Shown in pieces: positions 15,690 to 60,473 of a stretch of 64,000 bases of DNA. The position numbers were made by a program, and so were the translations under genes. The stretch is from Escherichia phage vB_EcoM_Goslar. Numbering within the stretch: the first letter of the stretch is position 1; every line of letters begins with the position of its first letter. The stretch lies in the sequence record NC_048170.1; one strand, given 5' to 3'. The notes under the pieces are model-generated. The model saw only the letters and a program-made list of their open reading frames with translations. It was not told the DNA's origin and searched no databases.

Positions 15690-17189
15690 ATGAGCGAACA
15701 AGAACGAAAACCTAAGAAGAAACTGCTCGGTATTCAATGTCGACACATCAGCTATAACGAAGCGAACGATGGCAGCAAGAACGACCTCATGATCGCAAAA
15801 GAGATCATGTTCTTTGATGATAATACGCAAGCGACGAACCTTCGCTTCTTTGAGAATTACAAACGTCCGTTTTGGGTGACAGTAGAGAGTAAACGTAAGA
15901 ACAAATATAAAAAGGAAAGCGAGAAGCTGTCACATGTGCGACGCTACGATGTCCGTCAAAGTGAACTGGTTGAAAAGATCAGTTCGGTGCTTTATAAAAG
16001 ACGTGCCGATGATAACACCCGTTTACAGCAGCTTGCACGGAGTCCATACCTCTATGGAACGGACGTTAGCGCCAGCTGTTATTTAAAAACCCAATACAAT
16101 ACAAAATGGCCGGAATACGTCGATAAATTACCCGCTTCTATCGCCTGTTTCGATATCGAAACTGACGTTGTCCATGGACACGGTAAGATCGTCTGTATGT
16201 CTATTACAATGGGATACAATGCGATACTTTGCTATACCAAGGACTTCGTTGGTCATATTCCGAATGCGATTGAGAAAACTCATGAGAAGATTCGATATTA
16301 TCTGGCCGAACGTCTGAATACCAAAGAAGATCCTCACGCGTTCGAAAAATATCATTACGATGTGCGAATCGTAGAAAGTCCGGCACAAGCGGTCATCCAA
16401 TGCATGCAAAAGGTTCACGAATGGCAGCCGGATTATCTCCTCGGCTGGAATATCGCGTTCGATATTCCGCGCATGCTCCAGGCACTGAACGAGGAAGGGT
16501 ATCGTCCCGAGGATGTTTTCTCCGATCCTCGTGTACCACCTAAATATCGTATTGCTCGCTGGGTACCACCGAAGACCGACAAGGTATCTGCTTCAGGTCG
16601 TAAAACCAACCTTACCCTCGAGCAGACCTGGCCGATGTTTTATACGATGGCTACGTATCAGGTTATGGATGCGATGTGTGGCTATAAGTTCGTTCGTTTA
16701 GGAAGACCGGATGAAGGACGCTATTCACTCGATGCGGTATTAGAGCGAAATAAATGCCATACGAAATTAAAAGCGATTCCTGGTACAGAAGGGTTCACGG
16801 AGCTTGCGTGGCACGAAGAAATGCAAACGAACCATCAAATCGACTACGGCGTATATAACCTTTGGGATAACCAAGGCATCGAGGCGTTGGACCAGAAAAC
16901 AAAAGACTATTCGATGACCATCCCTATCCGTTTAGCGGCGTCGGATTTGAAAGATTTCAGTTCTAACCCTAAACGTATCTGCGATAAACTTTTCTTCGTT
17001 TATCTTAACCGTGGGGAAGTCATGGGATGCACCGCCGACGACATGACCCAGGAAGAAGATAAGTGGGTTATCTCACGAACCGGACATATCGTCACATTAC
17101 CATGCGATCTCATGGCGGACAACGGCATTCATCTCTTCTGGGATATGCCTAATTTAAGGAGCTATATTCGATTATTTGTTGCGGATTAA
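15690..17189 (+). CDS. Family B DNA polymerase (E. coli Pol II-like) 3'-5' exonuclease domain; ORF ends before the polymerase palm motifs
   Basis: Exo I CFDIETD, Exo II GWNIAFDIPRML, Exo III YNLWD in canonical order and spacing; no motif A/B/C in this ORF. Confidence 0.7.
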   Translation: MSEQERKPKKKLLGIQCRHISYNEANDGSKNDLMIAKEIMFFDDNTQATNLRFFENYKRPFWVTVESKRKNKYKKESEKLSHVRRYDVRQSELVEKISSVLYKRRADDNTRLQQLARSPYLYGTDVSASCYLKTQYNTKWPEYVDKLPASIACFDIETDVVHGHGKIVCMSITMGYNAILCYTKDFVGHIPNAIEKTHEKIRYYLAERLNTKEDPHAFEKYHYDVRIVESPAQAVIQCMQKVHEWQPDYLLGWNIAFDIPRMLQALNEEGYRPEDVFSDPRVPPKYRIARWVPPKTDKVSASGRKTNLTLEQTWPMFYTMATYQVMDAMCGYKFVRLGRPDEGRYSLDAVLERNKCHTKLKAIPGTEGFTELAWHEEMQTNHQIDYGVYNLWDNQGIEALDQKTKDYSMTIPIRLAASDLKDFSSNPKRICDKLFFVYLNRGEVMGCTADDMTQEEDKWVISRTGHIVTLPCDLMADNGIHLFWDMPNLRSYIRLFVAD

Positions 17190-17257
17190 CCTTCGTTCTG
17201 TAAAAGTTTACTTCATGTAAGAATCGTGTGCGGCATAAGAGAGGCCGATACATCTAG

Positions 17258-18469
17258 ATGTTACATGAGGTTTACGAGATGGAAAAATCTATACATACTC
17301 AAACTGGAACTATTGACTATCGCGATTCAGCATATTTGCCGTACACAAATCATCGTTATCGTATATTTGAAGATGGCGAGTTGTACGACTATAAAGAAGA
17401 TAGGGTCGTCCCTTACGAAGTTGTAGACGGTGTCCCTTATGTTGAAATCGATTGGTATAGAGGCATTGGAAAATACGATCTCGGTATGATCATTCTCACC
17501 GTTCTTGAACGGGTTGCTTTACCAGATCACCTTTACGATGAAATTGAATCGTTGTTTGTGGACGGAGATCCGACTAACTTTTCGTATAGCAATCACATCT
17601 ACCGTTTCCGTAATGGGCCGTTAGAAGTTGAGGGATTCGAAGGTTATTGTTATATTCCGTTTGCATCTCGTTACGCGATAAATAAAGAAGGACATTGTAT
17701 TAGTCTTCTTTCGTTGGATCCTATCACGTGGACGAAAACGGTTCAGCAAGGCACACGTCTTGGCGGATACGCTTATCGTAAAGTGGTTCCCGACAGCGGG
17801 TTTACACCGCAGTTATATCGTCACCGAGCTATCATGTTAGCGTTTACGAGATATGATGCTAACGTTGTGAACTTAACTGTAAATCATAAAAACGGAATTA
17901 AAGGTGACGATTGGTTTGACAACCTCGAATGGGCGACATATGCCGAGAACAATCAACATGCTCGTATGGCAGGGTTGTGTATAGGTACGTCAAAACCTGT
18001 TTTGGTTTATGATTACCGTGCACGAATCGAACGTCGTTTTAATAGTATCGCAGAAGCGGAACGTGCTTATCCGTACGTGCCGAAAGGACGTTTCAAATGG
18101 TGGGTAAACAATCCTCCGAAACGTATCCCAGAATGCGATTTATACATCAAGTTTGCCACGGACAATACGCCTTGGCCGGAGTGGAAACTTGGAGAAGATC
18201 GTCGTGTCGAGGACACCGACGGTCGCGGTATTCTCGCTATTAATAAAGAGACGAACGAACGACATGTGTTTCCATCAGTAACTGCTGCCGCAAATGCGTT
18301 AGGAATCTCCTGGATTACCGTAAGACGTCATTGCGATCGTCGTGCAGTACCTACGAAACAGCCTTGGTGTTTTCGTTACGCTGATGATATCGCTGCCATG
18401 CCTGATTTCGATGTTAATAAATTAGTTCCTAAGAAGAAGCGTGTATTTAATGTCCCATTAGAACGATAA
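17258..18469 (+). CDS. HNH homing endonuclease (403 aa)
   Basis: HNH motif LTVNHKNGIKGDDWFDNLEWATYAENNQHA; AGAGAGG RBS; location between polymerase gene segments. Confidence 0.8.
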   Translation: MLHEVYEMEKSIHTQTGTIDYRDSAYLPYTNHRYRIFEDGELYDYKEDRVVPYEVVDGVPYVEIDWYRGIGKYDLGMIILTVLERVALPDHLYDEIESLFVDGDPTNFSYSNHIYRFRNGPLEVEGFEGYCYIPFASRYAINKEGHCISLLSLDPITWTKTVQQGTRLGGYAYRKVVPDSGFTPQLYRHRAIMLAFTRYDANVVNLTVNHKNGIKGDDWFDNLEWATYAENNQHARMAGLCIGTSKPVLVYDYRARIERRFNSIAEAERAYPYVPKGRFKWWVNNPPKRIPECDLYIKFATDNTPWPEWKLGEDRRVEDTDGRGILAINKETNERHVFPSVTAAANALGISWITVRRHCDRRAVPTKQPWCFRYADDIAAMPDFDVNKLVPKKKRVFNVPLER

Positions 18470-18504
18470 CAGGTCCCCCTACTTGTAATGAGTGGGTGAA
18501 CTCT

Positions 18505-18905
18505 CTTTAATTGCTGGAAACCTTTAATGCCCCTCCACACCACAACGCAATCCGAAAGGGTAAACGTGATGGTTGTCGAAAGACAGAAAAAAGTTGGAGG
18601 GGATTACCTATGTTGCAATAAAAGCCACCGCTTTCTTGGATAACGAAAGATGACGGTGGTACTAAGGGTAGAAGATAGAAATAAGGTAACCGTAGCAGCG
18701 AAGACCCTACGGACTGTCGTGACCGACTCGATGAGTTGGCGTGGTTAACACGGACAGGCTACGGGTAACGTTCAACGACCATCCGGTTGCGCGGAGTAGG
18801 AGAATTAGGATGTTCTCTGAAAAGGGAGAAGTCGGTCGAGGTGTTGTAGAAACACCATTCGGTTTGCTAACGCAAACCTAAGGCAGGCTAAGATATGGTC
18901 TATTT
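18505..18905 (+). ncRNA. Candidate group I intron catalytic core (P-, Q-, R-, S-like elements)
   Basis: R-like GTTCAACGACCA (~18770) and S-like AAGATATGGTC (~18890) with a compensatory P7 pair (GACCA/UGGUC versus consensus GACUA/UAGUC); P-like AATTGCTGGAAA (~18509); Q-like AACCGTAGCAGC (~18687); several hairpins; no ORF on either strand. Confidence 0.5.
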
Positions 18906-18948
18906 TTCGTTGTGTTCATGTATAGAAATTACTGAACCATCGTAAGAG

Positions 18949-19203
18949 CTCGATATATCTTCAAGCTATCCAAATGGGCAGATACTGCTCAATCTATCCA
19001 GAGCATGTGTTTTTCGTGAGCTCTCACGCATTGAGGGCGTCTCTGACTATCAATTCAGGAAGCTAGGTATCAACTTTATCACTGGAGGTAAAACGAACGC
19101 TGTAGACTTCTGTAGAATCGTTTATAAAGCGCCATCGATGTTTGAACTTTTAGAACATTTCGATGCGACGCGTCCAAAAGAGGAAGCGCGGACCATCGAA
19201 TGA
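18949..19203 (+). CDS. Candidate downstream exon: start-less open frame with polB motif-A-like sequence (LDISSSYPNGQ), stop at 19201-19203
   Basis: 86-codon open frame with no start codon until its last 21 codons; DISSSYP resembles DxxSLYPS; joining after 17186 to 18949 would be in frame and obey U at the 5' splice site and G at the intron 3' end. Confidence 0.3.
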   Translation, partial: LDISSSYPNGQILLNLSRACVFRELSRIEGVSDYQFRKLGINFITGGKTNAVDFCRIVYKAPSMFELLEHFDATRPKEEARTIE

Positions 19204-25391: not shown

Positions 25392-26270
25392 TTAAACCTG
25401 GGTCAGGTCGCCGCGACGTGAAACGAACTCTGATAACGCTCGGGTTGCTTCTTTGGATTCTTCAGCCATCGGGAAGTTTGCGGTAATAAGTTCTCGTAAG
25501 ACGGGAATAATTTCATTATCTTCGAGATCAGAAGCTAAAGCGAATGCAATCAGTTCTTGGGTGTATGCATACGGTTGCTGGCGTAATGTAGCCAACTGAT
25601 TCCGACACTGCGCCATCAGCAAGTCTAGTGGAACCGCTATCGTACCCCCTTCATCAATATACTGGCTGAACACCGGTGGGAACGCATCGCTGATGACACG
25701 AATTCGTCGACGAATATGATCCGGAATCAGGACGTTTTCTTCGTCGGTGATATTTTCGCTGTCTTTCTCCAGCTTCTTGGTCAGTACCTGTTGAATGCGT
25801 GGAAGTAAGCTTGAATGTACGAAATTGATTAACGGTGTTACGTTAACAGCATCAACGCCGTAAATATGATGCGCGCATTCCGCCAGCACTTCAGCTGTGG
25901 TGTAGTCTTCATCTTCAACGATAGCGAGTAGAAAAGCGGTATCGTCGTGTGTTTCCAGGTCTAATAACGTAGACGCCAGTGCATGAAGATATTTCAGGCT
26001 ATCCAGAGTTAGCTGTCCTTCGTTAATTCGGATCCCGAAGGCAAGCAATTGTTGTTTATAAAGTTCGATACATCCGTTTGTTAAAATGATATCTAATTCG
26101 TTTAAATCGTATTGTTCCCCAGCACCTGATAACATCGTACTGCAGAACGTTTCCAGTTGTTCGCATTTAAAATCTTGGTATAAACGATGCATGCAGTGCT
26201 GTAACAGCGTACGCCTTGTTTCAGGGATCTTACCTTCTAACAAAGCCAAGACGGAATCAATCATATCCAC
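25392..26270 (-). CDS. Hypothetical protein (292 aa)
   Basis: ORF track. Confidence 0.8.
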   Translation of the reverse strand: MDMIDSVLALLEGKIPETRRTLLQHCMHRLYQDFKCEQLETFCSTMLSGAGEQYDLNELDIILTNGCIELYKQQLLAFGIRINEGQLTLDSLKYLHALASTLLDLETHDDTAFLLAIVEDEDYTTAEVLAECAHHIYGVDAVNVTPLINFVHSSLLPRIQQVLTKKLEKDSENITDEENVLIPDHIRRRIRVISDAFPPVFSQYIDEGGTIAVPLDLLMAQCRNQLATLRQQPYAYTQELIAFALASDLEDNEIIPVLRELITANFPMAEESKEATRALSEFVSRRGDLTQV

Positions 26271-26360
26271 TCCGATGCGGTAAATGTCTACTAGCTCTCA
26301 TAATCTATTGAAGAAACTACCAGCTTACGCCAACTTAGATTAATCAGGAGTAACCATCCC

Positions 26361-26834
26361 ATGCCAGTTTCATCCAAACCAAGAAAAAAATCCGTAGGAA
26401 ACCCTAAAGCTCAGGAAACAACAGCAATTCGTTGGGACGAGTTACGTGAACCTATCGAAAACTGCGAATTGTTATTGGGCACCCTGGGTGCGGCTATTTA
26501 CCAAGCGACGCAACCCTGTCGTTTACGATTAACCCAAAACAAACGTGATGAGTTCGTTGCGTTATCAACGAGCACGAATAAAGATCTGACCGAACTTCAA
26601 ACCGAGTTGACGACGATCAAGAACTCCATTACGCCGATGTATGGTAAAGAAGTCGATGAACAAAGTATTCTGTTACAGTACAACTACGGGATGTCGTTAA
26701 TGAACATCCTGGAACGCGCATCCGATATTCTGCGTCCTGACGTTGCACGCCTGAGCCAACTGCGTGTTGAAGGGATGGAGAACCAGATCCGATTCGCTAA
26801 CAGTGTTAAATCTCAAGGAGCCACCGAAGCATGA
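26361..26834 (+). CDS. Hypothetical protein (157 aa)
   Basis: ORF track; CAGGAG RBS. Confidence 0.8.
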   Translation: MPVSSKPRKKSVGNPKAQETTAIRWDELREPIENCELLLGTLGAAIYQATQPCRLRLTQNKRDEFVALSTSTNKDLTELQTELTTIKNSITPMYGKEVDEQSILLQYNYGMSLMNILERASDILRPDVARLSQLRVEGMENQIRFANSVKSQGATEA

Positions 26835-28495
26835 GCGAACAAGAAAAAGAAGTCGTGACGAATCAGGAAGCCACCGAACGTTCAGAGTCGTCCGTTGAAA
26901 CTACGATTCCGGCAAGTTCCGAGCCGGTTGGTTCCGCACAGCAGGAAAGTAAAGAAGATGTAGTGGCTCCAGAAGCAACCCGTGAAGAAGAACCATCACA
27001 TCCACCGCTAATCGATTTCTCGAAGGCGACGATACGTTTCCAATGCGAAGACATTCGTCCTAAGAGTCCGAAGAAAACAAAACGTCAGCCGTTGGTGTTA
27101 CCGCTGTATTCTCCGCGTGTACAGACAGCGTATTACCGGGAATACATCAACGAAGCAATGGATACCGTACAAGCCATTGTCGCTCAACGCGGTAAACCGA
27201 CAGACGAACAGTTTGATAAATTCAGTAAAGCGGTGGTGCAATCGGTTGCTGATGGACAATATCATCCGCGTGGTCCAGCTCACGATCGTGCGTTGGAACG
27301 TAAGGGCAGTCAGTGGACTAACGTGCCCGTAGACTCATCGGGTGTTGGTCGCGTTATTCCTGGCATCCCGCAACCGAACCATATTCCTGATGATGTCGAA
27401 GCGCCGCTGACAGGAACCGATGCGATCTATTTTGCCATCCGTAATACGAAATCAGGTGCGCCTGCGGTAATGCCGTTATGGCATAGCGGTATTAAGCTGC
27501 AGTTTAATCCGCCGTCAAATGAACGTGTCGCAATTATGCACGAACGTATTGCCCGCGATAAAATCCTGGGTGGACGTGATAGTACCGGTTTCCTGTTTTC
27601 GGCAACCTCGATTATCACCATGAAGCACGCAATCGAATTAGCATTAGAATGCTGCTACATGGCCAACGTACCTAACCTGGATATCCAGCGTTTGAAAGAC
27701 ATTATTCCGGTTACCGATGTTCCAGCGTTATTGTTGAACGTGCTGGTAACCATGTATCCGTACGGATATCCTTACGTACAGACCTGCTATCAGAATCCAG
27801 AAACCTGCGACTATCGTGTTGAAGATACCGTAAGCTTTGCGAAACTCTATCAAGTTGACAACAGCGCAATAACCAAACGTATGCGACAGATCATGACCGA
27901 AGGTCCGGTCATGACAGATGAACTTTTGCGTGAGTATGCAAACGAACTGGGTGAAACAAACTCCCGTACGTTGGATCTGTCCGACAACGGTTCTGTTATC
28001 ATTGAACTTGAAGTACCGAAGATTTCACGTCAGATCGCCATGGGCGAACGCTGGTTAAGCGATACCCTGGAAGATCTGCGTGATATTCTATCGCGTCCGT
28101 CAATGACCGAAGAAGAGCGTGATCGTGTTATTCGTGAACGTCAGTTCTATAGCTGGATGCGTCAGTATGATGCATGGATCAAATCCATGCACGTGTCAGT
28201 AAACGGCACCATGCGTCGTGTAAGCGATGCGGATACAGCAACGGTATTAGCGCAGCTGTCTCGTGATAGCGATCTTCGTGAACGCTATATCGATGGGTTG
28301 ATGCAATTCATCGGTGATTCGACGATTGCGCTCGCAGCGATGCCTGCCTGGAAATGTCCGAAATGTAATACCGATATTGCCGACAATCTGCGTGACCAGA
28401 AATACTACGATCTGATTGCTTTGGATGTACCCCAGCTTTTTTTTACCCTAAACTCCGTCCAATCTCTTCAGGAGGGGATGGACGCGGTATTCTAA
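26831..28495 (+). CDS. Hypothetical protein (554 aa) with acidic low-complexity N-terminus
   Basis: ORF track; AAGGAG RBS; ATGA overlap with upstream gene. Confidence 0.85.
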   Translation: MSEQEKEVVTNQEATERSESSVETTIPASSEPVGSAQQESKEDVVAPEATREEEPSHPPLIDFSKATIRFQCEDIRPKSPKKTKRQPLVLPLYSPRVQTAYYREYINEAMDTVQAIVAQRGKPTDEQFDKFSKAVVQSVADGQYHPRGPAHDRALERKGSQWTNVPVDSSGVGRVIPGIPQPNHIPDDVEAPLTGTDAIYFAIRNTKSGAPAVMPLWHSGIKLQFNPPSNERVAIMHERIARDKILGGRDSTGFLFSATSIITMKHAIELALECCYMANVPNLDIQRLKDIIPVTDVPALLLNVLVTMYPYGYPYVQTCYQNPETCDYRVEDTVSFAKLYQVDNSAITKRMRQIMTEGPVMTDELLREYANELGETNSRTLDLSDNGSVIIELEVPKISRQIAMGERWLSDTLEDLRDILSRPSMTEEERDRVIRERQFYSWMRQYDAWIKSMHVSVNGTMRRVSDADTATVLAQLSRDSDLRERYIDGLMQFIGDSTIALAAMPAWKCPKCNTDIADNLRDQKYYDLIALDVPQLFFTLNSVQSLQEGMDAVF

Positions 28496-28587
28496 TCGAT
28501 CCGCGATACGGGTTACACGACGGGCAACTTGTTCGTAATGATGAAAAAATCTGGGAATTGCTGTTAGCGCGTAAAGGCGATGGTGGC

Positions 28588-28917
28588 ATGAAGCTGAACA
28601 TCGAAATGGGTATTGCGTACGATACCATGTTTGGCTTGTACGATCGTGTTAACGACTGGACGCCGTTGAAATGGGTGGCTCAGCATCCCGCTGAAGATCC
28701 CTGGGACAGATTAGGGATTAAACCCTTAATCGAGGATTATGTCCGATTCGGTATTAAAGAGTTCATGACGCTGGATGCGTTTTTAAAAGCACCGTATCCT
28801 TACGCGCAAACGGTACTCAAAATCGCACAAGACGAACTGCGGAAACGTAGTGCGGTACTGGACGACGATGAGGACAAGTTACGACGAGAAGAAGAACGTT
28901 TACGAAACGGAAAATAA
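28588..28917 (+). CDS. Hypothetical protein (~110 aa; start uncertain)
   Basis: ORF track 28558..28917; track start is probably over-extended. Confidence 0.6.
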   Translation: MKLNIEMGIAYDTMFGLYDRVNDWTPLKWVAQHPAEDPWDRLGIKPLIEDYVRFGIKEFMTLDAFLKAPYPYAQTVLKIAQDELRKRSAVLDDDEDKLRREEERLRNGK

Positions 28918-28918
28918 A

Positions 28919-29428
28919 ATGGCGAGATTTACCAGTTTGATTGGATTGGACATTTGGGAAACACCGGCTGACGTTCGGGTTATTCCTGTCAACACCGTCG
29001 GTGTGATGGGACGTGGTCTTGCCAAGCAGGCTGCCGAGCGCGTGCCCGGTCTTCTTGAAGCGTACCGCAAGCAATGTCGAGATGGGTTTACGGTGGGTGA
29101 AGTCGTGTCATATCAGCATGGCGAGAACGATCAGCTCACCTACGTGTTGTTTCCATCAAAATCGGATTGGCGTGAAAGAACACGACGCGAGTATATCGTT
29201 AACGGTTTACTGGCGTTAAAAGCATGGTTATTGGAGCTTCAGTTCGAAAGAGACGGCTTCTCATACCACCGTCCGGCTGAACCGTTGATTGTCGCAATTC
29301 CTCCGGTTGGTTCTGGTTGCGGTAATATCGGTTACGGACAATCCGAAACAATCCAGCCTCAGTGGGTACGCGCACAAATCAAACAGTATCTTGCCACCGT
29401 ACCGAACGTTCATTTCTACTTGTTCTAA
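28919..29428 (+). CDS. Putative macro-domain (ADP-ribose binding/hydrolase) protein
   Basis: VIPVNTVGVMGRGLAKQ and AIPPVGSGCGNIGYG resemble the two glycine-rich macro-domain motifs; start at internal ATG (MARFTSL), track start 28850. Confidence 0.5.
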   Translation: MARFTSLIGLDIWETPADVRVIPVNTVGVMGRGLAKQAAERVPGLLEAYRKQCRDGFTVGEVVSYQHGENDQLTYVLFPSKSDWRERTRREYIVNGLLALKAWLLELQFERDGFSYHRPAEPLIVAIPPVGSGCGNIGYGQSETIQPQWVRAQIKQYLATVPNVHFYLF

Positions 29429-29439
29429 TGCAACGGTAA

Positions 29440-29485
29440 CATAACCCTCTCCCAACCCAGCAGGGAAGGGAGAGGGCTTATGCTG
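29440..29485. terminator. Bidirectional stem-loop between convergent genes (CCCTCTCCC / GGGAGAGGG), same family as 7984..8030
   Basis: Inverted repeat; same AACCC...AGGGAA loop and ATGCTGTTAT flank as the 7984 element. Confidence 0.6.
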
Positions 29486-29493
29486 TTATGCTA

Positions 29494-29868
29494 TTAATGT
29501 TCGTTCCAGATGGCATCTTCCGGTGGAACAATAGGATCTTTCCTTGGCATTGACGGCACTTCATGACGATGCTTACGGAACTGCCTATCAATAACCTCAC
29601 GAAGCCGGTACGCGTCAACCCATGTTGATTTATTGAACAGCTCCAATGTCACAGTTAATCGTGTTCTTGACATTGAATAGCTTTTCTTTGCAATCAAATT
29701 GGGATAATTCAGTTGAGCGAACCATGCACGTATTTGTGCTTCGGTAAAAGCGATGCTGTAATAACTAAGTTTACCGTCATTAAAATCGTGCGCGTGGGTG
29801 TAGCGTCCAGCGTAACGCCAGACAAGATGCACATTCAGATCGATCCATGGTGGGGTGGTATCAGCCAT
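29494..29868 (-). CDS. Hypothetical protein (124 aa)
   Basis: ORF track. Confidence 0.7.
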   Translation of the reverse strand: MADTTPPWIDLNVHLVWRYAGRYTHAHDFNDGKLSYYSIAFTEAQIRAWFAQLNYPNLIAKKSYSMSRTRLTVTLELFNKSTWVDAYRLREVIDRQFRKHRHEVPSMPRKDPIVPPEDAIWNEH

Positions 29869-29877
29869 GTGTTACCC

Positions 29878-30447
29878 TCAACGATTCTTCATCACTTTAC
29901 CCAGGCTTTCGATATTATCCCAAAAGCGATTTTTACTTGGTGCATCGCCAACGATGACCGACATCAAATCGCGACGTTCACGACTGATGATGCCTTGTGA
30001 TTTCCAGATCACCATCGTCCAGCAAGCTGCCAGAACGAACAGATGGTTAATGCTCGGTTTGGTTTGTGCGATGAACGCAAGCCATGCCCAGATACCGGTA
30101 TATACTATCGTCACTAAAAAGAGGGAGATTGTTGCAACGACAACAACGAAGTTTTGGACAGCGGGTTGATTCGCGTTATCATGAATAGCGGTAAGATCAG
30201 GAAGGTTACCTTCAACTGAACTCGTTTCATCGATTTCCAATTCTTCGATTTCTTTTCGTGTGTCGGGAGCTAATCCGGCATCATCAAGATGCTTTTTTAA
30301 CCGCTGTATACTTAATCGTTGACCGACAGGAATGTTGATGTTGTCGTAACTATTAAGCGCATCAACCAGGGAGCGTCCATCAACGAGAACCAAGCTCGCA
30401 GTACCCATTGTCTGCGGTTTTATTTTGTAAAGGTCTTTTACTTTCAT
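29878..30447 (-). CDS. Hypothetical membrane protein (189 aa)
   Basis: ORF track; long hydrophobic segments (VVVATISLFLVTIVYTGIWAWLAFIA). Confidence 0.7.
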   Translation of the reverse strand: MKVKDLYKIKPQTMGTASLVLVDGRSLVDALNSYDNINIPVGQRLSIQRLKKHLDDAGLAPDTRKEIEELEIDETSSVEGNLPDLTAIHDNANQPAVQNFVVVVATISLFLVTIVYTGIWAWLAFIAQTKPSINHLFVLAACWTMVIWKSQGIISRERRDLMSVIVGDAPSKNRFWDNIESLGKVMKNR

Positions 30448-30468: not shown

Positions 30469-33081
30469 TTAAGCGTCTGGTGTAAAATCAAAAGGAATGT
30501 CCGTACGAATGATATCATAACGTTTTCCTAATAAATAGAACTCTTCGGGAACCTGGCCGGGAATAATGCTATCGCCGATGAACTGCGGATACGCCCAGAT
30601 GTACTGAGTGAGTCCTTCGAACATATCCAGGTTATTTGCGTGGTTACCCATGATACGTTTCCAGAGTTCGCGTTTATACGGTGTTTTAACATCGAATCCA
30701 TAAAGCGGTGCAAGATCTTCACCAGGAACAAATCCCAGGTAATAATGGATCTGACTAACCGGGAAACCAAGCGTATCTCGCGGAATGGTGATCGCTTGCT
30801 CAGCCTTGGTGACATGCGTTTCAATAATCCAGTCGTAGCACTCCGAATAGAACCGATCGAATTTCTCTGGGTTATACCACGCTTTGGGAAGATTCAGTTT
30901 CTCCGTGAACGCGTTCGACATGATCGTCGGCAAGAACGGAAGAACGCCGGTTTTGATCTGCGTGTATTTCGATTTTACCCGGTTAACCAAATTCCAGCAA
31001 CTGTATCCTAATTGGTCGTTACAAAACTCAACGTAGAGATCGTAGTCACCACCGGATAACGGGTTGTTAATATCACCGATGTCTGCGGCGTATTTGTTGG
31101 GATATCGGTTATTGAAAGCCAGTTTGGTTTGGTAATCGTAGATACACGGTTTGTTGTTCGCTGTATTGATCCACCACCAGGGTTCACCTACTTGTACACA
31201 AATGTCCTGGACATGGGGGTAGATGATATCAGCAAACGCGGTTAACACATCCCCTAACCACGCCATCGCCTGTTGGTTACATGGAGACAGCAACCAGGAC
31301 GGTGGTGTATATCCGGTTGCTGCGATGTTTCCTTCCCAATCCTGCTGCGCCCACTCGAATGGACACGCCGTACTCATCAATTCGTAACTTAAACTGATGG
31401 TGACAGAGAAATGGTGTTTTGCAGCATATGCGGCGAAAGCTTCATGCCACGCGATACAGGGTGGATTTAATACATCCGTGGTGTTCACCAGTAACTTACC
31501 CGCACTTGGCGTCCAGACAGTATCGTAGAAATGCGACATTCCAACATAATGCACTAATTCATCCTGATATCCCGCATAAACCAGGTTTTCAAATACACGC
31601 TCTGGCGTGATGTTGTAATGGTCATCGTAAGCGGTTATCGCACGAAGTTCGTGTGGCGTACAATGATGGCGATTAACCGTCATTTCCTGATACACCCCAT
31701 CGATAGGAAGAATCTCGAGGGTTAAACCGAGGTCGATTGGCGTTTCCAGATAGGTCGTTTCAGTCGCATCTTCCTTATAATGTCGAGAACTCATGCTGAA
31801 CATCAACGACGTTACCGATTCAAGTTCGATAGGTTCGTCAGCATAGAACCCCGCCATTGCGTCATTGAAATCGATCGTCACGATTGCGCTTGTACCGTCT
31901 TCAGAGACGTCGGTCGCATATCGGGTTAATGAGATATACTGACGGCTATCGTCTTTGTGTACGATGGTTAGAACCGGCGGGTTTTCGGTATCTGCAAAGT
32001 TACGCTGATCGCCAGTAAACGTGATCTTCGCTTTAAAGATCAAACCGAATAACGACGTCATGGGATCATACGCAATACAACCGTGATCCAGCGTATCCGT
32101 TGTCCGCCATTCTATCCCGACCAACCCGTTAGCGGTATGGCATCGCATATACGCATTAAGGACCATGTCTTCACTGACAACCGCGAAGTTCTCTGTTGAC
32201 TGACCGTTGATAATCCAATACATCGGTTGCCAGAGGTTACGCGTACCTTTTGCGTAGCGGTAGGTTGGTGCGCCTTTAGGGTTGCCATTATTGAGATGGA
32301 ATACGGCAGTACCTTGATAATGGTCGTTCGTATTAATCGGAACACTGTAAGCATCACCGAGATCCGTACGTTCCACCTTCGTGACTGTTGCGTTTTCAAA
32401 CAACCCACGTAGCGCCGGTAAACCGATATCTTCAGGTGCGTTTTCTCGACGAATCGCATCCGCGATGCGGTGGGCTAAGGCGGGGTAAATGGCCTCACCC
32501 TGCTGTAGGTTTGCAAGACCTACAAAGCGATCGGGGTCGATGCCAGCAATCAATAACTCGACATCACCCTTCGTTCTATCGTCGTTAAGATATTTCAGTC
32601 CGGTAAGGTCAAGATGCTGAATAAGCGACAACAGGTTGTATTTACGGTTTTCAACAGTTAGTACAAGATCGCCTGCCCAAACCAAACTTCCCTCATCCGC
32701 TGTTACTTTAACGGATTGTCGGCCTGTGGTAGACGTTGTTGTCGTTTTATTTAATTGTCCTTGTAGGAAGTCGGTTGCGAGGTCAAAGGCAATGCCGTAA
32801 CGGTCAGCGACCGCTTGCATGATTTCACGTAACTGGGTATCTTCTTCAATGATAATCTTGATAGGTATTCCCAAGAACGCTTTAGCGAGGTCTCGTTTAA
32901 CCAACGAGACGAATACGGATTTGTAGTATCGGCTTCCATCTTTCCCTTTAAAAAGAATGGAGGTTGTTTCGGGTGCCGATAGAACACGTGCAAATTCAAC
33001 ATCGTCGAATGTAAGAGAAAGTCCGTTTTTCTCGTTGACCAATCTTAGTATTTCATTTTGCGCGGTTTCATGTAACTTCAT
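30469..33081 (-). CDS. Putative tail fiber / receptor-binding protein (870 aa) with N-terminal domain shared with 38868..39413 and 43211..44041
   Basis: N-terminal similarity (RDLAKAFLGIPIKIIIE versus RDIAKAFLGIPVKIVLE); Trp/Tyr/Gly-rich C-terminal part; position in the fiber locus. Confidence 0.55.
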   Translation of the reverse strand: MKLHETAQNEILRLVNEKNGLSLTFDDVEFARVLSAPETTSILFKGKDGSRYYKSVFVSLVKRDLAKAFLGIPIKIIIEEDTQLREIMQAVADRYGIAFDLATDFLQGQLNKTTTTSTTGRQSVKVTADEGSLVWAGDLVLTVENRKYNLLSLIQHLDLTGLKYLNDDRTKGDVELLIAGIDPDRFVGLANLQQGEAIYPALAHRIADAIRRENAPEDIGLPALRGLFENATVTKVERTDLGDAYSVPINTNDHYQGTAVFHLNNGNPKGAPTYRYAKGTRNLWQPMYWIINGQSTENFAVVSEDMVLNAYMRCHTANGLVGIEWRTTDTLDHGCIAYDPMTSLFGLIFKAKITFTGDQRNFADTENPPVLTIVHKDDSRQYISLTRYATDVSEDGTSAIVTIDFNDAMAGFYADEPIELESVTSLMFSMSSRHYKEDATETTYLETPIDLGLTLEILPIDGVYQEMTVNRHHCTPHELRAITAYDDHYNITPERVFENLVYAGYQDELVHYVGMSHFYDTVWTPSAGKLLVNTTDVLNPPCIAWHEAFAAYAAKHHFSVTISLSYELMSTACPFEWAQQDWEGNIAATGYTPPSWLLSPCNQQAMAWLGDVLTAFADIIYPHVQDICVQVGEPWWWINTANNKPCIYDYQTKLAFNNRYPNKYAADIGDINNPLSGGDYDLYVEFCNDQLGYSCWNLVNRVKSKYTQIKTGVLPFLPTIMSNAFTEKLNLPKAWYNPEKFDRFYSECYDWIIETHVTKAEQAITIPRDTLGFPVSQIHYYLGFVPGEDLAPLYGFDVKTPYKRELWKRIMGNHANNLDMFEGLTQYIWAYPQFIGDSIIPGQVPEEFYLLGKRYDIIRTDIPFDFTPDA

Positions 33082-34470: not shown

Positions 34471-34911
34471 TTACTTAGCAGCAGGAAATTCCGGCCAATC
34501 GATATTTGGTGCAGCATCGGTATCGACAGCCGACACCGCGTCAACGTAATCCAAAACGGCGTTAAGTCGGGTCGTTTCTTCCGGAGTCAGTTTTCGCCCA
34601 GCCCGTAATTTTAACTGAATAAGATCGATGGAAGCCAGCGAAGAATCAATCAAAGATTGTTTTATCTGTTCTGCCTCGGCGACAAGTTCTTCGTGTTGCC
34701 GCTCGGGTTCCGGAGGCGCGATAAACTCGCCGTTTGAGTATAACCAACCTATTCCAGGTGACACAGCTGCCGTATCGCTAATGCTAACCAGCTGCTGATT
34801 GTCGAATATATCGAGCTCTGCTTCACCATCGTAAACAATCGTGTTTACTACCACTCCATTTTCAATAACAGCGTATAATGTACTCATTACATAAACTCCT
34901 CGATGATGCAA
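34471..34911 (-). CDS. Tail fiber assembly chaperone (Tfa-like)
   Basis: C-terminal VSAVDTDAAPNIDWPEFP closely matches the lambda Tfa C-terminus (LNRVDTSTAPDIEWPAVP); 25-nt overlap with the tail fiber gene. Confidence 0.8.
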   Translation of the reverse strand: MHHRGVYVMSTLYAVIENGVVVNTIVYDGEAELDIFDNQQLVSISDTAAVSPGIGWLYSNGEFIAPPEPERQHEELVAEAEQIKQSLIDSSLASIDLIQLKLRAGRKLTPEETTRLNAVLDYVDAVSAVDTDAAPNIDWPEFPAAK

Positions 34912-37900
34912 ATCCCATTAGCACCACGCCCACCAGGCTTAGCGGTTCCTGAGTAAGAGTTATCGTAAGCACCACCACCACCCGAACCAGGCGCGAGGCC
35001 GTTATGGGCGGTGCCAACACCAGCGCGACCGCCACCGCCCCAATATGACGCACCCCCACATCCACCGACGGCAATAGTACCGGCTTGTCCATCGCTACCG
35101 TCTCCGCCCGGAATGCGTATATCCCCGGTAGCAGGTGCGCCCCCATAGCCACCGCCAGTGTTTGTGACAGTTGTTTTTCCTGCGCCTTGCCCGCCGGGAG
35201 CAGTTAGCAGGGATGCAAATTTACTATCCCCACCCCCGTTCCCAGACGTCGCCCCAGAGCCACCGGAACCACCAGAACCAATTATAACAGAATAACTAGC
35301 AGCTGTTACCGTTATAACCGAAATTACTGTTCCGCCAGCTCCTCCCCCAGCACCAAAAAACGTTTCGCTGTTGGAATAAGCCTGACAGCCACCGCCGCCA
35401 CCGCCGCCACCGGTTATTGTTACTCTAATCCGTTTTGTTCCTTGTGTTGGAGTGTACGTCCCTGACGATGTGAAAACACGCATGTTCAGTAAACGTCCGA
35501 CATATCCGCTAGAATCGGCTAAACCAAGATCTTTAGCTGCTAACGTGATATTAGCTGTACCATCGAAAGGTTTACCGTTAATCGTGCGCGCAGTTTGCAA
35601 CTTCGTCGCCGTGGCTGCGTTCCCTGATGTATTCTGGTTCCCCGCGACGTTAACACCTGGTAGATTGATGTTCGCACTACCGTCGAAAGACACCCCACCA
35701 ATGGTGCGGGCTGTTTTCAGTTTTGTCGCCGTGGCGGCATTCCCCGTAGTGTCTTGGTTTCCTGCTGCGTTAACACCCGGCAGACTGATATTTGCCGTAC
35801 CATCGAACGCGACACCGCCAATCGTCCTTGCCGTTTGTAGTTTTGTCGCCGTGGCGGCATTACCGGTTGTGCTTTGGTTACCGGTGGTGTTTACCCCAGG
35901 TAGGCTGATATTTGCTGTTCCGTCAAATGAAACGCCGCCAATCGTCCTTGCCGTTTGCAACTTCGTTGCGGATGCCGCGTTCCCCGTGGTGTTTTGGTTA
36001 CCTGTTGCATTCACACCAGGGATACTATCCTTAGATGTATAGATCTGTGCCCATTCCGACCAATTCGAATCGGCTGCATCCCGACGAGAACGAAGATAGG
36101 CTGGCGCATGCGCCCCCGATGTACCAGACCATCCAATAAGGATCTCACCTTCACCTACTGCGGTTGCGCCTTTAAGATGAATAATATTGCCGTACGCTGT
36201 AGGGTATCCGTTATTGTACGCTTCATACATCTGGATACCCGTATTGCTACCCTGGGTCGCATTAGCTAAAGCGGTGACCCGTCCCTTGGAAGCGAGCACG
36301 TTAATGCTAAAGCTAATATCAGTTGTACCGTCAAAGGCGACCCCATTAATCCTCCGTGCCGTTTGGAGTTTCGTGGCAGTAGCCGCATTACCAGAAGTGC
36401 TCTGGTTACCCGCTTTGTTCACACCCGGTAAATCAATGTTGGCAGTCCCATCAAACGACACACCCCCTATGGTTCTCGCCGTCTGGAGTTTTGTTGCTGA
36501 ACCGGCGTTTCCGGAAGTGCTTTGATTGCCCGCGGCGTTGACACCAGGTAGGTTAATGCTAGCAGAACCATCAAAAGAAACTCCACCGATCGTAATGGTC
36601 GTTTGCAACTTCGTGGCTGTCGCAGCGTTACCCGTCGTATTCTGATTACCAGCTGCATTGACGCCAGGTAATGCGATATCAGTTGTACCGTCAAAAGCGA
36701 CACCACCGATTTTACGGGCGGTCTGTAGCTTGGTTGCGCTTCCTGCGTTTCCGCTGGTGTCTTGGTTTCCTGCAGCGTTAACACCCGGTAGACTGATGCT
36801 GACCGAACCATCGAAACTCACACCACCGATCGTAACAGCGGTTTTCAATTTCGTGGCAGTAGCTGCGTTACCGGTTGTATTTTGATTGCCTGTCGCATTA
36901 ACGCCCGGTAATGCAATATCCGCTGTTCCGTCAAAGGCAACGCCACCGATTCTACGTGCAGTTTGTAGCTTGGTCGCTGTAGCGGCATTACCGCTGGTAT
37001 TTTGCGTGCCTGCTTTATTTACACCGGGAAGATCGATGTTAGCAGAACCGTCGAAGCTAACGCCACCTATCGTTCTTGCCGTAGCAAGTTTAGCTGCTGT
37101 AGCAGCGGCGTTACCGACTTTTAACCATTCGCCCCATGGACCATCCTGGCCGTTCCATGATGCCGTTAAACTACGTACGTAAATATTGCCGGTACGTACA
37201 GTGTAACGTTGTGTTCCACCGAATTGCCCGGTTGGGAGCACTTCAATGTAACCTGCGGCGTTTGCTTCAGGGAAATTGTGGGCGACGTCCGCGTTCGTCG
37301 TTATTGGTTTAGACCAAATACCCACAGATGCTTCGACTGGACCGAAGGTATTCAGATTTGCGTCCGTCGCCATAGCACCATTAAATTTCAGGTACGTCTC
37401 TGGCGATAATCCGATCGTTTTAGCAAACGCAACTTTATCTACGATATCACTACCGTTATTCCCTGCCTGCAATGCTGTCTTAGCTGCCTTTATGGTTTCT
37501 GTCAATCCAAGATACAGTAAGACCGCATCAACGCTTCCTTTGCTTAGCAGATTCAGACCTGTTGACGTTACGTTAGTTAGCCCGATTTGGTTCCGTCCAG
37601 TAAAATAAGGGAGTTTATTCGCATCTGTTGTTAGGTTAGACCACGCGGTCAGCAACGCGTTCAACGGTTGTTTACCCGCCAACGCATTGGTTACTGTCGT
37701 TGCGAAATTAGGATCGTTCCCTAAAGCTTGAGCCAGCTCATTAAGCGTATTTAGCGCTTCTGGAGACGAGTCGATCAGCGATGCGATAGCACGCATCACA
37801 AATTCCGTGTTGGCAATCTGTCGACTGCTATCGTTCTCTGCAGCCGTAGGCGCTGCCGGGATACCGGTGAACACAGGGCTATTAAGATCTGCCTTGAGAG

Positions 37901-38861
37901 CGATGAGACGTTTAAGTGCGTCGACATCGACTTTCAGGTTTTCCCATCCGATGAGAGAACCACCACTGGCGTTATGATAACGGTTGTACCAGAAGTCGCC
38001 GTTAACGCCAAAAAAGAATATACCTTTCTCTTCGTATTGTGGGCCAGAACTATTTCGTGATGTTTCGATATATTTGATTTCAATAAGACCGCTAAACACC
38101 ACTCCTGGGATTATATTGTTGTTTCCAGCTGACTGTGATACCTGGTAAATCCCCGGGGTTGCGGCTTTAACCCATGTTAAGAATTCTGTTACTCCAGCGG
38201 CACCGCTAAAATTCTTAACGTCGGTAAGTATCGCCCCATAACCGAACATACCGGGTAGAGCCACTCGTTCGCTGGTACGGTCACGAATATCTGTCGCAAC
38301 AACGGGCAATTGTTTACGAACAGCATTAACCGCTTTAGGCGTGGCCGATTTTGTCTCGTCGTCGCTATCGGTTTCATTACTTAGAATAGTTAAACCGCGT
38401 GTAGCAGTAGTTGCATCAGGAAGAAATGCGTTATCCAACACCTTAAGCTGTATTGCACTCGTATTACTAACAACGACATGCACCTGACAGTTAAGAACGC
38501 TGGTTGCGCCTTCGGCAGGCGTAGGCTTATATCTTTCTGGCGCACTGCAGACGGCAATCAGAACACCTTGGTCATCATACAGACCGATCTCACGTACCCA
38601 GAACCCACCTTGACCAGCGGGAATAATACCCTCAACGATAATCCTGGTTGTGCTATCACCATCCGCATGGATATTAGAAACTTCCCCACGATAAACTTCG
38701 TGAACAAGCGCTGTTTGGCTGGCGGTCGGGGTTGGGATCGAGCCGTTACCATCACCAACGGCAAAGTGTGTGATTTTTAGTTTCTCACCGTCGGGAAGTA
38801 ACGCAGCGGTGATACGTTCTGCTCCTTTATCGGTAACTACCGTTATATATGCTGTACTCAT
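34887..38861 (-). CDS. Tail fiber protein (1324 aa): conserved fiber N-terminal domain, eleven 40-aa repeats, polyglycine-rich C-terminal region
   Basis: N-terminus resembles lambda Stf / P2 gpH-type fibers (RGLTILSNETDSDDETKSATPKAVNAV); repeats of GNAATATKLQTARTIGGVSFDG; Tfa gene immediately downstream. Confidence 0.85.
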   Translation of the reverse strand: MSTAYITVVTDKGAERITAALLPDGEKLKITHFAVGDGNGSIPTPTASQTALVHEVYRGEVSNIHADGDSTTRIIVEGIIPAGQGGFWVREIGLYDDQGVLIAVCSAPERYKPTPAEGATSVLNCQVHVVVSNTSAIQLKVLDNAFLPDATTATRGLTILSNETDSDDETKSATPKAVNAVRKQLPVVATDIRDRTSERVALPGMFGYGAILTDVKNFSGAAGVTEFLTWVKAATPGIYQVSQSAGNNNIIPGVVFSGLIEIKYIETSRNSSGPQYEEKGIFFFGVNGDFWYNRYHNASGGSLIGWENLKVDVDALKRLIALKADLNSPVFTGIPAAPTAAENDSSRQIANTEFVMRAIASLIDSSPEALNTLNELAQALGNDPNFATTVTNALAGKQPLNALLTAWSNLTTDANKLPYFTGRNQIGLTNVTSTGLNLLSKGSVDAVLLYLGLTETIKAAKTALQAGNNGSDIVDKVAFAKTIGLSPETYLKFNGAMATDANLNTFGPVEASVGIWSKPITTNADVAHNFPEANAAGYIEVLPTGQFGGTQRYTVRTGNIYVRSLTASWNGQDGPWGEWLKVGNAAATAAKLATARTIGGVSFDGSANIDLPGVNKAGTQNTSGNAATATKLQTARRIGGVAFDGTADIALPGVNATGNQNTTGNAATATKLKTAVTIGGVSFDGSVSISLPGVNAAGNQDTSGNAGSATKLQTARKIGGVAFDGTTDIALPGVNAAGNQNTTGNAATATKLQTTITIGGVSFDGSASINLPGVNAAGNQSTSGNAGSATKLQTARTIGGVSFDGTANIDLPGVNKAGNQSTSGNAATATKLQTARRINGVAFDGTTDISFSINVLASKGRVTALANATQGSNTGIQMYEAYNNGYPTAYGNIIHLKGATAVGEGEILIGWSGTSGAHAPAYLRSRRDAADSNWSEWAQIYTSKDSIPGVNATGNQNTTGNAASATKLQTARTIGGVSFDGTANISLPGVNTTGNQSTTGNAATATKLQTARTIGGVAFDGTANISLPGVNAAGNQDTTGNAATATKLKTARTIGGVSFDGSANINLPGVNVAGNQNTSGNAATATKLQTARTINGKPFDGTANITLAAKDLGLADSSGYVGRLLNMRVFTSSGTYTPTQGTKRIRVTITGGGGGGGGCQAYSNSETFFGAGGGAGGTVISVITVTAASYSVIIGSGGSGGSGATSGNGGGDSKFASLLTAPGGQGAGKTTVTNTGGGYGGAPATGDIRIPGGDGSDGQAGTIAVGGCGGASYWGGGGRAGVGTAHNGLAPGSGGGGAYDNSYSGTAKPGGRGANGICIIEEFM
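35544..37106 (-). repeat. In-frame tandem coding repeats (120-bp unit, about 6.6 + 4 copies, interrupted at 36024..36314) within the tail fiber gene
   Basis: Periodicity read from the translated protein; explains the spurious antisense ORFs 35452..37182. Confidence 0.85.

Positions 38862-57395: not shown

Positions 57396-60473
<3,078 letters not shown>

What the first reader, a model, noticed from the sequence alone, without database searches (positions are those of the whole stretch)
28919..29428. Putative macro-domain protein: candidate counter-defence against ADP-ribosylation
The ORF carries two glycine-rich motifs (VNTVGVMGRGLA and PPVGSGCGNIGYG) arranged like the ADP-ribose-binding loops of macro domains. 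Phage macro domains could reverse ADP-ribosylation by host toxins such as DarT-type systems, or degrade ADP-ribose-derived signals.
Basis: inference. Interest (0 to 1): 0.55.

Follow-up and report, generated by a model that had tools for sequence, protein, structure and literature searches.

The report
Phage Goslar's anti-DarT macrodomain (AdfM)

Summary
It is a macrodomain of the DarG subtype. It passes Pfam Macro (24.5 bits, cut-off 22). It matches only the N-terminal macro part of the PADLOC DarG model (77 bits) and the NCBIfam antitoxin_DarG model (81 bits). A profile of its family hits DarG crystal structures at E 1e-42, against 5e-14 for TARG1. An AlphaFold2 model (pLDDT 85.7) superposes best on Thermus and Mycobacterium DarG macrodomains (TM 0.87, 2.0 A). 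The functionally tested DarG residues are conserved: N25, K81, W84 and both Gly loops. The protein is 100% identical to residues 18-186 of Escherichia phage Goslar gp83 (YP_009820768.1), and the two upstream proteins are exactly Goslar gp81 and gp82. It is 32% identical over its full length to PhiKZ gp104 (AdfM). Morgan et al. (Cell Rep 2026) showed that AdfM removes DarT2-made ADP-ribose from DNA and protects the phage, and their alignment includes Goslar gp83. There is no DarT gene nearby and no DarT-binding domain, so it is an orphan antitoxin. Activity and nuclear import of the Goslar protein itself have not been tested.

The parts
28919..29428 (+). CDS of the 169-aa DarG-type macrodomain protein, which is Goslar gp83, an AdfM homologue; the stop codon is included
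   Evidence: ORF and sequence. Pfam Macro. PADLOC DarG and NCBIfam antitoxin_DarG. 100% identity to residues 18-186 of YP_009820768.1. 32% full-length identity to PhiKZ gp104, E 1e-25.
28988..29023 (+). Loop 1, VNTVGVMGRGLA (aa 24-35). It contains N25, which corresponds to TaqDarG N22 and PhiKZ AdfM N23.
   Evidence: Invariant N25, G28, M30, G31, G33. Residue mapping. N22A in TaqDarG and N23A in PhiKZ AdfM reduce activity.
29159..29170 (+). K81-S-D-W84. K81 is the predicted catalytic lysine (TaqDarG K80, TARG1 K84). W84 corresponds to TaqDarG W83, which was proposed to stack on the thymine.
   Evidence: K81 and W84 are invariant in the family alignment. Mapping. K80A inactivates TaqDarG.
29300..29338 (+). 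Loop 2, PPVGSGCGNIGYG (aa 128-140). G131, G133 and G135 correspond to TaqDarG G117, G119 and G121. A clade-specific insertion of about 10 aa follows, up to W148.
   Evidence: Alignments. pLDDT is below 50 for residues 134-141 in the model.
29430..29491 (.). Stable hairpin between the convergent genes gp83 (+) and gp84 (-); a probable bidirectional transcription stop. The core stem is CCCTCTCCC at 29445-29453 paired with GGGAGAGGG at 29468-29476.
   Evidence: RNA fold -32.6 kcal/mol, z = -4.6. The stem changes compensatorily to CCCTCCTCC/GGAGGAGGG in L001 and L002. The simple terminator scan missed it because there is no canonical T-run.
26361..28917 (+). Upstream genes of the same + strand unit: a 157-aa ORF at 26361-26834 (not checked against Goslar records), gp81 (554 aa, PhiKZ gp77 homologue) and gp82 (109 aa, 28588-28917). 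The gp83 ATG follows the gp82 stop by one base.
   Evidence: ORFs. PHROG matches. Exact identity to Goslar_00081 and gp082. tblastn to PhiKZ gp77. The same gene order appears in the distant metagenomic phage L006.

Best explanation
The gene encodes a stand-alone DarG2-type macrodomain, a DNA ADP-ribosyl glycohydrolase, carried by the nucleus-forming E. coli jumbo phage Goslar. It is that phage's AdfM. During infection of a host that carries a DarTG2 toxin-antitoxin system, released DarT2 ADP-ribosylates thymidines in single-stranded phage DNA at TNTC-type motifs. This blocks replication and packaging. The phage enzyme binds the ADP-ribose with its two glycine-rich loops, and K81, positioned with N25 and W84, cleaves the thymidine-ribose bond to restore unmodified DNA. 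It lacks the C-terminal DarT-binding domain of cellular DarG, so it can only work catalytically, as an orphan antitoxin. What is shown here: the fold, the DarG-subtype affiliation, conservation of the catalytic residues, identity with Goslar gp83, homology to PhiKZ AdfM, and the absence of DarT and of the DarG C-domain. What is inferred from the PhiKZ work: the actual hydrolase activity, the DarT2 specificity, import into the Goslar phage nucleus through PicA, and the protective phenotype.
For: The macro fold has DarG as its nearest solved structures: 5m31, 5m3e and 5m3i at E 4.7e-14 to 3.8e-12, TM (target) 0.86-0.87, rmsd 2.0-2.2 A, ahead of TARG1 and Poa1p. By sequence, phmmer gives 7e-15 to TaqDarG, and a family profile gives 1e-42 to DarG macrodomains against 5e-14 for TARG1. 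DarG is the only hit in PADLOC (77 bits). NCBIfam antitoxin_DarG scores 81 bits on model positions 7-146 of 338. N25, K81, W84, G131, G133 and G135 align with TaqDarG N22, K80, W83, G117, G119 and G121, residues whose mutation impairs DarG. Identity to PhiKZ gp104/AdfM is 32% over the full length, E 1e-25. AdfM was shown to de-ADP-ribosylate DarT2-modified DNA, rescue DarT2 toxicity and be needed on DarTG2 hosts. The protein is identical to Goslar gp83, which that paper lists as an AdfM homologue. The phage context is chimallivirus-type: split PhiKZ-type RNAP beta subunit and synteny with PhiKZ gp77-gp91, with exact Goslar gp81 and gp82. Selection is purifying, 15 synonymous to 4 non-synonymous codon differences. 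E. coli carries DarTG systems that ADP-ribosylate ssDNA (abstract of PMC7003065; PMC11825919).
Against: There is no experiment on the Goslar protein itself; the paper tested PhiKZ AdfM biochemically and genetically, and tested localisation only for PhiKZ, PhiPA3 and Asesino. The protein is more divergent from DarG than PhiKZ AdfM is (77 vs 133 bits on the PADLOC DarG model). It carries two clade-specific insertions, about 13 aa at residues 109-121 and about 10 aa directly after the ADP-ribose-clamping loop 2. The second is modelled with pLDDT below 50, so substrate range could differ. The Pfam Macro score is only just above threshold. Whether natural Goslar hosts carry a DarTG2 that restricts Goslar was not examined.
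Confidence: 0.8

Rival explanations
1. It is a TARG1-like hydrolase that removes ADP-ribose from proteins (Glu/Asp-linked), for example to undo host or phage protein ADP-ribosylation, rather than from DNA.
For: TARG1 is the second-closest structural class (E 5e-10 to 2e-8, TM about 0.8). It shares the catalytic lysine position, K81 = TARG1 K84.
Against: TARG1's second catalytic residue, D125, aligns with a glycine (G135), as in DarG. W84, the DarG-specific residue proposed to stack on thymine, is present where TARG1 has Ala. The family profile scores DarG about 28 orders of magnitude better than TARG1. The characterised homologue acts on DNA.
Confidence: 0.05
2. It is a metabolite-processing macrodomain: an ADP-ribose-1''-phosphate phosphatase or O-acetyl-ADP-ribose deacetylase. 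This is what the database labels 'phosphatase', 'Appr-1-p processing' and 'regulator of RNase III' suggest. It would be linked to tRNA repair or NAD metabolism.
For: PHROG 335 is labelled 'phosphatase'. JGI names for relatives read 'O-acetyl-ADP-ribose deacetylase (regulator of RNase III)'. Poa1p appears among the fold matches at E about 1e-7.
Against: These labels are generic carry-overs for any macrodomain; the PDB entries for DarG itself carry the same names. The MacroD-type N-x6-G-G-[VLI]-D motif is not met: the sequence reads N25-TVGVMG-R-G-L-A, with no catalytic Asp. The MacroD-type NCBIfam model scores only E 0.07. The Poa1p superposition is poor (rmsd 5-6 A).
Confidence: 0.04
3. It is a nucleic-acid de-ADP-ribosylase whose specificity has shifted or broadened because of the enlarged loop 2. 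It might act on ADP-ribosylated RNA, or on other bases modified by ARTs other than DarT2.
For: A clade-specific insertion of about 10 residues sits directly after the GxGxG loop that clamps ADP-ribose, and it is poorly modelled. The protein is clearly more divergent from DarG than PhiKZ AdfM is. Other ART-based defences that modify RNA exist (titles).
Against: All residues tied to thymidine-ADPr cleavage in DarG are kept. The closest relatives without the insertion (P0007-P0014) share the same core motifs. Guanine-ADPr is reversed by NADAR enzymes rather than macrodomains, and antitoxins are base-specific.
Confidence: 0.08
4. It is a non-catalytic binder or degrader of ADP-ribose-derived immune signals such as Thoeris cADPR isomers.
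For: Macrodomains bind ADP-ribose derivatives, and macro-containing Thoeris effectors exist (title of PMC11204291).
Against: There is no similarity to any known anti-Thoeris protein. A sponge would not need the invariant catalytic Lys and Asn that are retained here. The subtype is DarG.
Confidence: 0.02

Closest known systems
AdfM (anti-DarT factor macro), PhiKZ gp104 (Morgan et al., Cell Rep 2026, PMC13309987)
   Same: Both are stand-alone macrodomains of about 160-170 aa encoded by a chimallivirus. They are collinear over the full length at 32% identity, from the MA.F N-terminus to the C-terminal strand. N23/N25, K78/K81, W81/W84 and both Gly loops are conserved. The identical Goslar gp83 sequence is in the paper's AdfM alignment.
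   Different: The genomic position differs. In Goslar it is the last gene of the gp81-gp82-gp83 unit next to the virion-RNAP block. In PhiKZ it lies among small genes about 35 kb away from the gp77 homologue. The Goslar clade has a longer insertion at residues 109-121 and an extra insertion of about 10 aa after loop 2. Activity, localisation and phenotype were measured for PhiKZ, not for Goslar.
Bacterial DarG2 antitoxin (Thermus aquaticus and M. tuberculosis DarG; PDB 5M31, 5M3E, 5M3I)
   Same: The macrodomain subtype is the same and DarG gives the best structural and sequence matches. The catalytic K, the N, the W and the GxGxG loop are conserved.
   Different: Only the N-terminal macro half is present: it matches positions 7-146 of the 338-position DarG model and scores 81 bits against the 250-bit equivalog cut-off. 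There is no C-terminal DarT-binding domain and no adjacent darT gene.
AdfN (phage NADAR orphan antitoxins against DarTG1) and AdfA/AdfB
   Same: The strategy is the same: a phage-borne factor neutralises DarT. AdfN, like this protein, is an orphan copy of the antitoxin's enzymatic domain.
   Different: The fold is different (NADAR, not macro) and so is the target (guanine-ADPr made by DarT1). AdfA and AdfB were identified through escape mutants, and AdfB likely neutralises DarT by direct interaction (abstract).
TARG1 (human C6orf130)
   Same: It belongs to the same macrodomain clade, is the second-best structural class, and shares the catalytic lysine.
   Different: It acts on protein Glu-ADP-ribose and uses D125, which aligns with Gly in this protein. 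It lacks the Trp after the lysine.

Membership tests
Macro domain (Pfam PF01661) | The sequence matches the family model above the curated cut-off | tested here: met
   24.5 bits against a gathering score of 22, residues 23-141 on model positions 3-113 of 118. The margin is small, but profile searches back it strongly.
Macro domain (Pfam PF01661) | Three-layer alpha/beta/alpha macro fold | tested here: met
   AF2 model with pLDDT 85.7 and pTM 0.84. 212 PDB matches at E <= 0.001; every listed match that is a natural protein is a macrodomain or an uncharacterised protein, and the rest are computationally designed OSH55 serine hydrolases.
DarG-type (DarG2) macrodomain | Closest to DarG among macrodomain subtypes | tested here: met
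   PADLOC DarG 3.4e-22. NCBIfam antitoxin_DarG 7.5e-23. PDB profile search: DarG 1e-42 against TARG1 5e-14. Top Foldseek hits 5m31, 5m3e, 5m3i with TM 0.87.
DarG-type (DarG2) macrodomain | Catalytic lysine (TaqDarG K80) and Asn (N22), plus Trp (W83) after the lysine | tested here: met
   K81, N25 and W84 align with them and are invariant in the 13-sequence family alignment. Their functional importance comes from PMC5179494.
DarG-type (DarG2) macrodomain | Hydrolysis of thymidine-linked ADP-ribose on ssDNA | not testable with these tools
   This needs an enzyme assay. It has been shown for TaqDarG and PhiKZ AdfM only.
Full-length DarG antitoxin of a DarTG2 toxin-antitoxin operon | C-terminal DarT-binding domain (protein of about 340 aa) | tested here: not met
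   The protein has 169 aa and covers only model positions 7-146 of 338. It scores 81 bits against the 250-bit cut-off and positions 8-143 of 329 in PADLOC.
Full-length DarG antitoxin of a DarTG2 toxin-antitoxin operon | Adjacent darT toxin gene | tested here: not met
   The neighbours are gp82 (109 aa, phrog_12109) and, on the opposite strand, 124-aa and 189-aa ORFs. None has a Pfam hit.
AdfM (chimallivirus anti-DarT factor macro) | Full-length homologue of PhiKZ gp104 | tested here: met
   BLASTP 32% identity over residues 1-162 vs 1-155, E 1e-25. tblastn finds the phiKZ-like phage orthologues at 2e-15.
AdfM (chimallivirus anti-DarT factor macro) | Encoded by a nucleus-forming (chimallivirus) phage | tested here: met
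   The window proteins are exactly Goslar gp81, gp82 and gp83. There is a PhiKZ-type split RNAP beta subunit and synteny with PhiKZ gp77-gp91. Goslar's nucleus and PicA are documented in PMC11087766. The chimallin gene itself is not in the window.
AdfM (chimallivirus anti-DarT factor macro) | Import into the phage nucleus and protection against DarTG2 | not testable with these tools
   This has been shown for PhiKZ (and localisation also for PhiPA3 and Asesino), not for Goslar.
TARG1-type protein ADP-ribosyl hydrolase | Catalytic dyad K84 + D125 | tested here: not met
   The Lys is present (K81), but D125 aligns with G135.
MacroD / YmdB-type deacetylase | N-x6-G-G-[VLI]-D catalytic motif and family model match | tested here: not met
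   The sequence reads N25-TVGVMG-RGLA, so the Asp is replaced by Ala35 (translation). The model NF001666 scores E 0.07, 13 bits against a cut-off of 246.

The most novel reading that the evidence does not exclude
The Goslar-clade AdfM carries two insertions absent from DarG: about 13 aa at residues 109-121, and about 10 aa directly after the ADP-ribose-clamping loop 2. PhiKZ AdfM has only a shorter insertion (about 9 aa) at the first site and none at the second. These insertions might give the enzyme a different or broader substrate range than thymidine-ADPr DNA, for example activity against other enterobacterial ADP-ribosyltransferase defences. Alternatively they might form the species-specific surface that Goslar PicA reads for nuclear import. 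Either would make this a functionally distinct AdfM variant rather than a plain orthologue.
Probability: 0.12. Interest if true: 0.5.

Novelty: already known. Interest (0 to 1): 0.2.

Why it matters
DarTG systems are widespread DNA-ADP-ribosylating phage defences, and orphan-antitoxin enzymes are an emerging class of phage counter-defence. For nucleus-forming phages, AdfM shows that the protein shell alone does not fully protect the genome. For this window the value is mainly confirmatory. A tool-less reading of two glycine-rich motifs correctly recovered the function class that was published in 2026. What is left to gain is modest. The Goslar/E. coli pair is genetically tractable through CRISPRi-ART and would allow the PhiKZ result to be tested in enterobacteria. 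The clade-specific loop insertions could be probed for effects on specificity or nuclear import.

Tried and rejected
- **Megablast against the phage collection.** A search with 2.5 kb around the gene found nothing, and tblastn gave only hits below 60% identity. Goslar and its close relatives are simply absent from that collection. Identity was established instead through protein cluster look-ups.
- **Exact-sequence contig look-up.** The 169-aa protein was not found, presumably because no gene call on record has exactly this 169-aa sequence; the Goslar record is annotated from an upstream start (186 aa).
- **Two-gene module hypothesis.** I tested whether gp82 (109 aa) is a conserved partner of the macro gene and rejected it. 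gp82 has no similarity to PhiKZ gp103. Its only homologue in the phage collection, in Noxifer, follows the gp77 homologue with no macro gene after it. gp82 therefore belongs to the conserved gp77 block, and the macro gene is an accessory gene added at the end of the unit in Goslar-like phages and in L006.
- **Promoter and terminator scan.** The sigma-70 and intrinsic-terminator scan of 26000-30000 gave nothing useful. The hairpin after the gene was found by direct folding and comparative alignment.
- **Rfam and tRNA scans.** Rfam at gathering threshold and the tRNA scan of the whole window found nothing.
- **Alternative subtype assignments.** TARG1-type, MacroD-type and Poa1p-type assignments were considered and rejected on motif and score grounds.
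- **Chimallin gene.** I did not search for it. It lies outside the window, and the exact identity to Goslar proteins made the search unnecessary.

Full report
**Observation.** The + strand carries an ORF from the ATG at 28919 to the TAA at 29426-29428, encoding 169 aa. The ATG lies one base after the stop codon of the preceding gene (28588-28917). The gene is the last of a + strand unit that begins at 26361. A stable hairpin follows it at 29430-29491 (-32.6 kcal/mol, z = -4.6). The hairpin's GC stem changes compensatorily in two related contigs. The gene after the hairpin is convergent, on the - strand.

**Is it a macrodomain, and of which kind?**
- Pfam Macro is matched just above the curated cut-off (24.5 vs 22 bits).
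- phmmer against PDB sequences gives the Thermus aquaticus DarG macrodomain at 7e-15, the M. tuberculosis DarG macrodomain at 1e-12, and the Thermosipho DarTG fusion at 7e-5.
- PADLOC returns a single family, DarG (77 bits). NCBIfam returns antitoxin_DarG (81 bits). Both matches cover only the N-terminal macro half of those models (about positions 7-146 of 330-338), so the score stays far below the 250-bit equivalog cut-off.
- A profile built from 13 homologues hits the DarG structures at about 1e-42, TARG1 at about 5e-14 and every other macrodomain class worse than 5e-8.
- An AlphaFold2 model built on that alignment (mean pLDDT 85.7, pTM 0.84) has DarG macrodomains as its best Foldseek matches in the PDB (E 5e-14 to 4e-12, TM normalised to target 0.86-0.87, rmsd 2.0-2.2 A). 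TARG1 and then Poa1p follow.

**Active site.** I used the residue numbering of Jankevicius et al. 2016 (PMC5179494) and an explicit alignment.
- N25 aligns with TaqDarG N22 and PhiKZ N23.
- K81 aligns with TaqDarG K80, the residue whose mutation inactivates DarG, and with TARG1 K84.
- W84 aligns with TaqDarG W83.
- G131, G133 and G135 align with TaqDarG G117, G119 and G121.
- All of these are invariant in the family alignment.
- TARG1's second catalytic residue, D125, corresponds to a glycine, as it does in DarG.
- The MacroD-type N-x6-GG[VLI]D motif is not present; the position of the Asp is Ala35.

**What genome is this?** Nucleotide search of the phage collection found nothing, and protein hits there were all below 60% identity, mostly in jumbo phages. 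Cluster look-ups resolved the question.
- The protein is 100% identical to residues 18-186 of Goslar_00083 (YP_009820768.1).
- The 554-aa and 109-aa proteins upstream are exactly Goslar gp081 and gp082.
- The window also carries a PhiKZ-type split RNAP beta subunit.
- It is syntenic with PhiKZ gp91 through gp77.
- Goslar is a nucleus-forming E. coli chimallivirus with an essential PicA importer (PMC11087766).

**Comparison with what is known.** PhiKZ gp104 is 32% identical over the whole length (E 1e-25). Morgan et al. (Cell Rep 2026, PMC13309987) named it AdfM and showed four things:
- it removes DarT2-made ADP-ribose from a TNTC oligonucleotide, and N23A reduces that activity;
- it rescues DarT2 toxicity;
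- it is imported into the phage nucleus;
- it is required for PhiKZ to grow on DarTG2-carrying hosts.

The legend of their Figure 1 lists 'Goslar gp83 (NCBI: YP_009820768.1)' among the aligned DarG macrodomain homologues. The exact protein in this window is therefore already assigned to the family in print, although only by sequence. The related phage strategy against DarTG1 uses NADAR orphan antitoxins (AdfN). Antitoxins are base-specific, with macro for thymidine and NADAR for guanine (PMC11825919). That base specificity is why I predict DarT2 specificity here.

**Mechanism.** The shown and inferred steps are separated under the best explanation. In brief, this is a catalytic orphan antitoxin with no DarT-binding domain and no neighbouring darT gene.

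**Context and evolution.**
- The macro gene behaves as an accessory gene appended to a conserved block. The block runs: RNAP beta (PhiKZ gp80-like), a gp79-like gene, a 157-aa ORF, gp81 (PhiKZ gp77-like), gp82.
- A metagenomic chimallivirus has the same order ending in a macro gene. Its RNAP beta and gp81 are only 31% and 24% identical to Goslar's, yet its macro protein is 39% identical.
- Noxifer has the block, including gp82, but no macro gene.
- PhiKZ keeps its AdfM about 35 kb from its gp77.
- This patchiness fits the paper's statement that about half of chimalliviruses have AdfM.
- Among close relatives the gene is under purifying selection, with 15 synonymous and 4 non-synonymous codon differences.
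- The wider family is very large: 2,263 50%-identity cluster representatives at E <= 1e-30. Of the best 150, 73 are 200 aa or shorter and 72 are 201-400 aa.

**What is peculiar to this protein.**
- It is more divergent from DarG than PhiKZ AdfM is (77 vs 133 bits).
- It has an insertion of about 13 aa at residues 109-121.
- It has an insertion of about 10 aa right after loop 2, at residues 136-147, with pLDDT below 50.
- P0006, the next relative at 47% identity, shares both insertions. PhiKZ has only a shorter insertion of about 9 aa at the first site.
- Their role is unknown. A change of specificity or a role in the PicA recognition surface cannot be excluded. The mapped PhiKZ recognition region (aa 77-95) corresponds to residues 80-98 here, not to the insertions.

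**Verdict.** The finding corresponds to a published protein family assignment, so it is already known and of low interest for discovery. The residual open points are experimental confirmation in Goslar, the insertions, and the annotated start codon.

Noticed in passing
window 15690-19161 (+): The DNA polymerase gene (PhiKZ gp82 homologue) is interrupted. PhiKZ gp82 residues 3-560 align to 15693-17186 and residues 560-630 to 18946-19161. An HNH endonuclease ORF (17258-18469) lies in between. Just upstream of the second exon there is a full-length but sub-threshold Rfam group I intron match at 18405-18923 (44.7 bits vs gathering 50, E 1.4e-9). This is probably a group I intron carrying a homing endonuclease.
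   Followed up: partly
window 28868-28918 (+): The GenBank/RefSeq start of Goslar gp83 (186 aa, ATG at 28868) overlaps gp82 by 50 nt. Other records start even further upstream (217 aa). Homologues and the 169-aa NCBI records named 'macro domain-containing protein' support the ATG at 28919. The single substitution in this stretch in L002 is synonymous in the gp82 frame and non-synonymous in the extension frame.
   Followed up: partly
whole window / clusters of gp81-gp83: Proteins identical or more than 90% identical to Goslar gp81-gp83 occur on 235-259 kb contigs in many NCBI, ENA and Logan assemblies labelled Salmonella enterica (several serovars), E. coli (including O157) and Shigella. This suggests Goslar-like phages are often carried along in enterobacterial isolate sequencing, through a carrier state, pseudolysogeny or contamination.
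   Followed up: no
phage collection hits H18, H27-H32, H37-H39: DarG-like stand-alone macrodomain genes (about 30-37% identity to gp83) also occur in Escherichia and Shigella phages of about 69-82 kb (e.g. EK5, SGF2, MN03, TH38), far smaller than jumbo phages. I did not check whether these have been tested as anti-DarT factors.
   Followed up: no
window 29430-29491: A strong hairpin lies between the convergent genes gp83 and gp84, with compensatory stem changes in relatives (CCCTCTCCC/GGGAGAGGG against CCCTCCTCC/GGAGGAGGG). It has no canonical T-tract, so the simple terminator scan misses it.
   Followed up: yes
window 34887-38861 (-): A 1324-aa tail-fibre gene gives very strong, repeated matches to many tail-fibre PHROGs. 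Local GC is about 0.50-0.51, against 0.43-0.49 in the rest of the window. This is compatible with a horizontally exchanged host-range module. In relative L002 the corresponding ORF is shorter, at 1174 aa.
   Followed up: no
window 30469-33081 (-): An 870-aa protein matches the Pfam 'non-contractile tail sheath protein' TIM-barrel and N-terminal domains, plus DUF7941.
   Followed up: no
window 58090-60165 (-): A full-length NAD-dependent DNA ligase (phrog_3869, E 1.8e-189). It is another NAD-using enzyme in the same phage as the ADP-ribose hydrolase.
   Followed up: no
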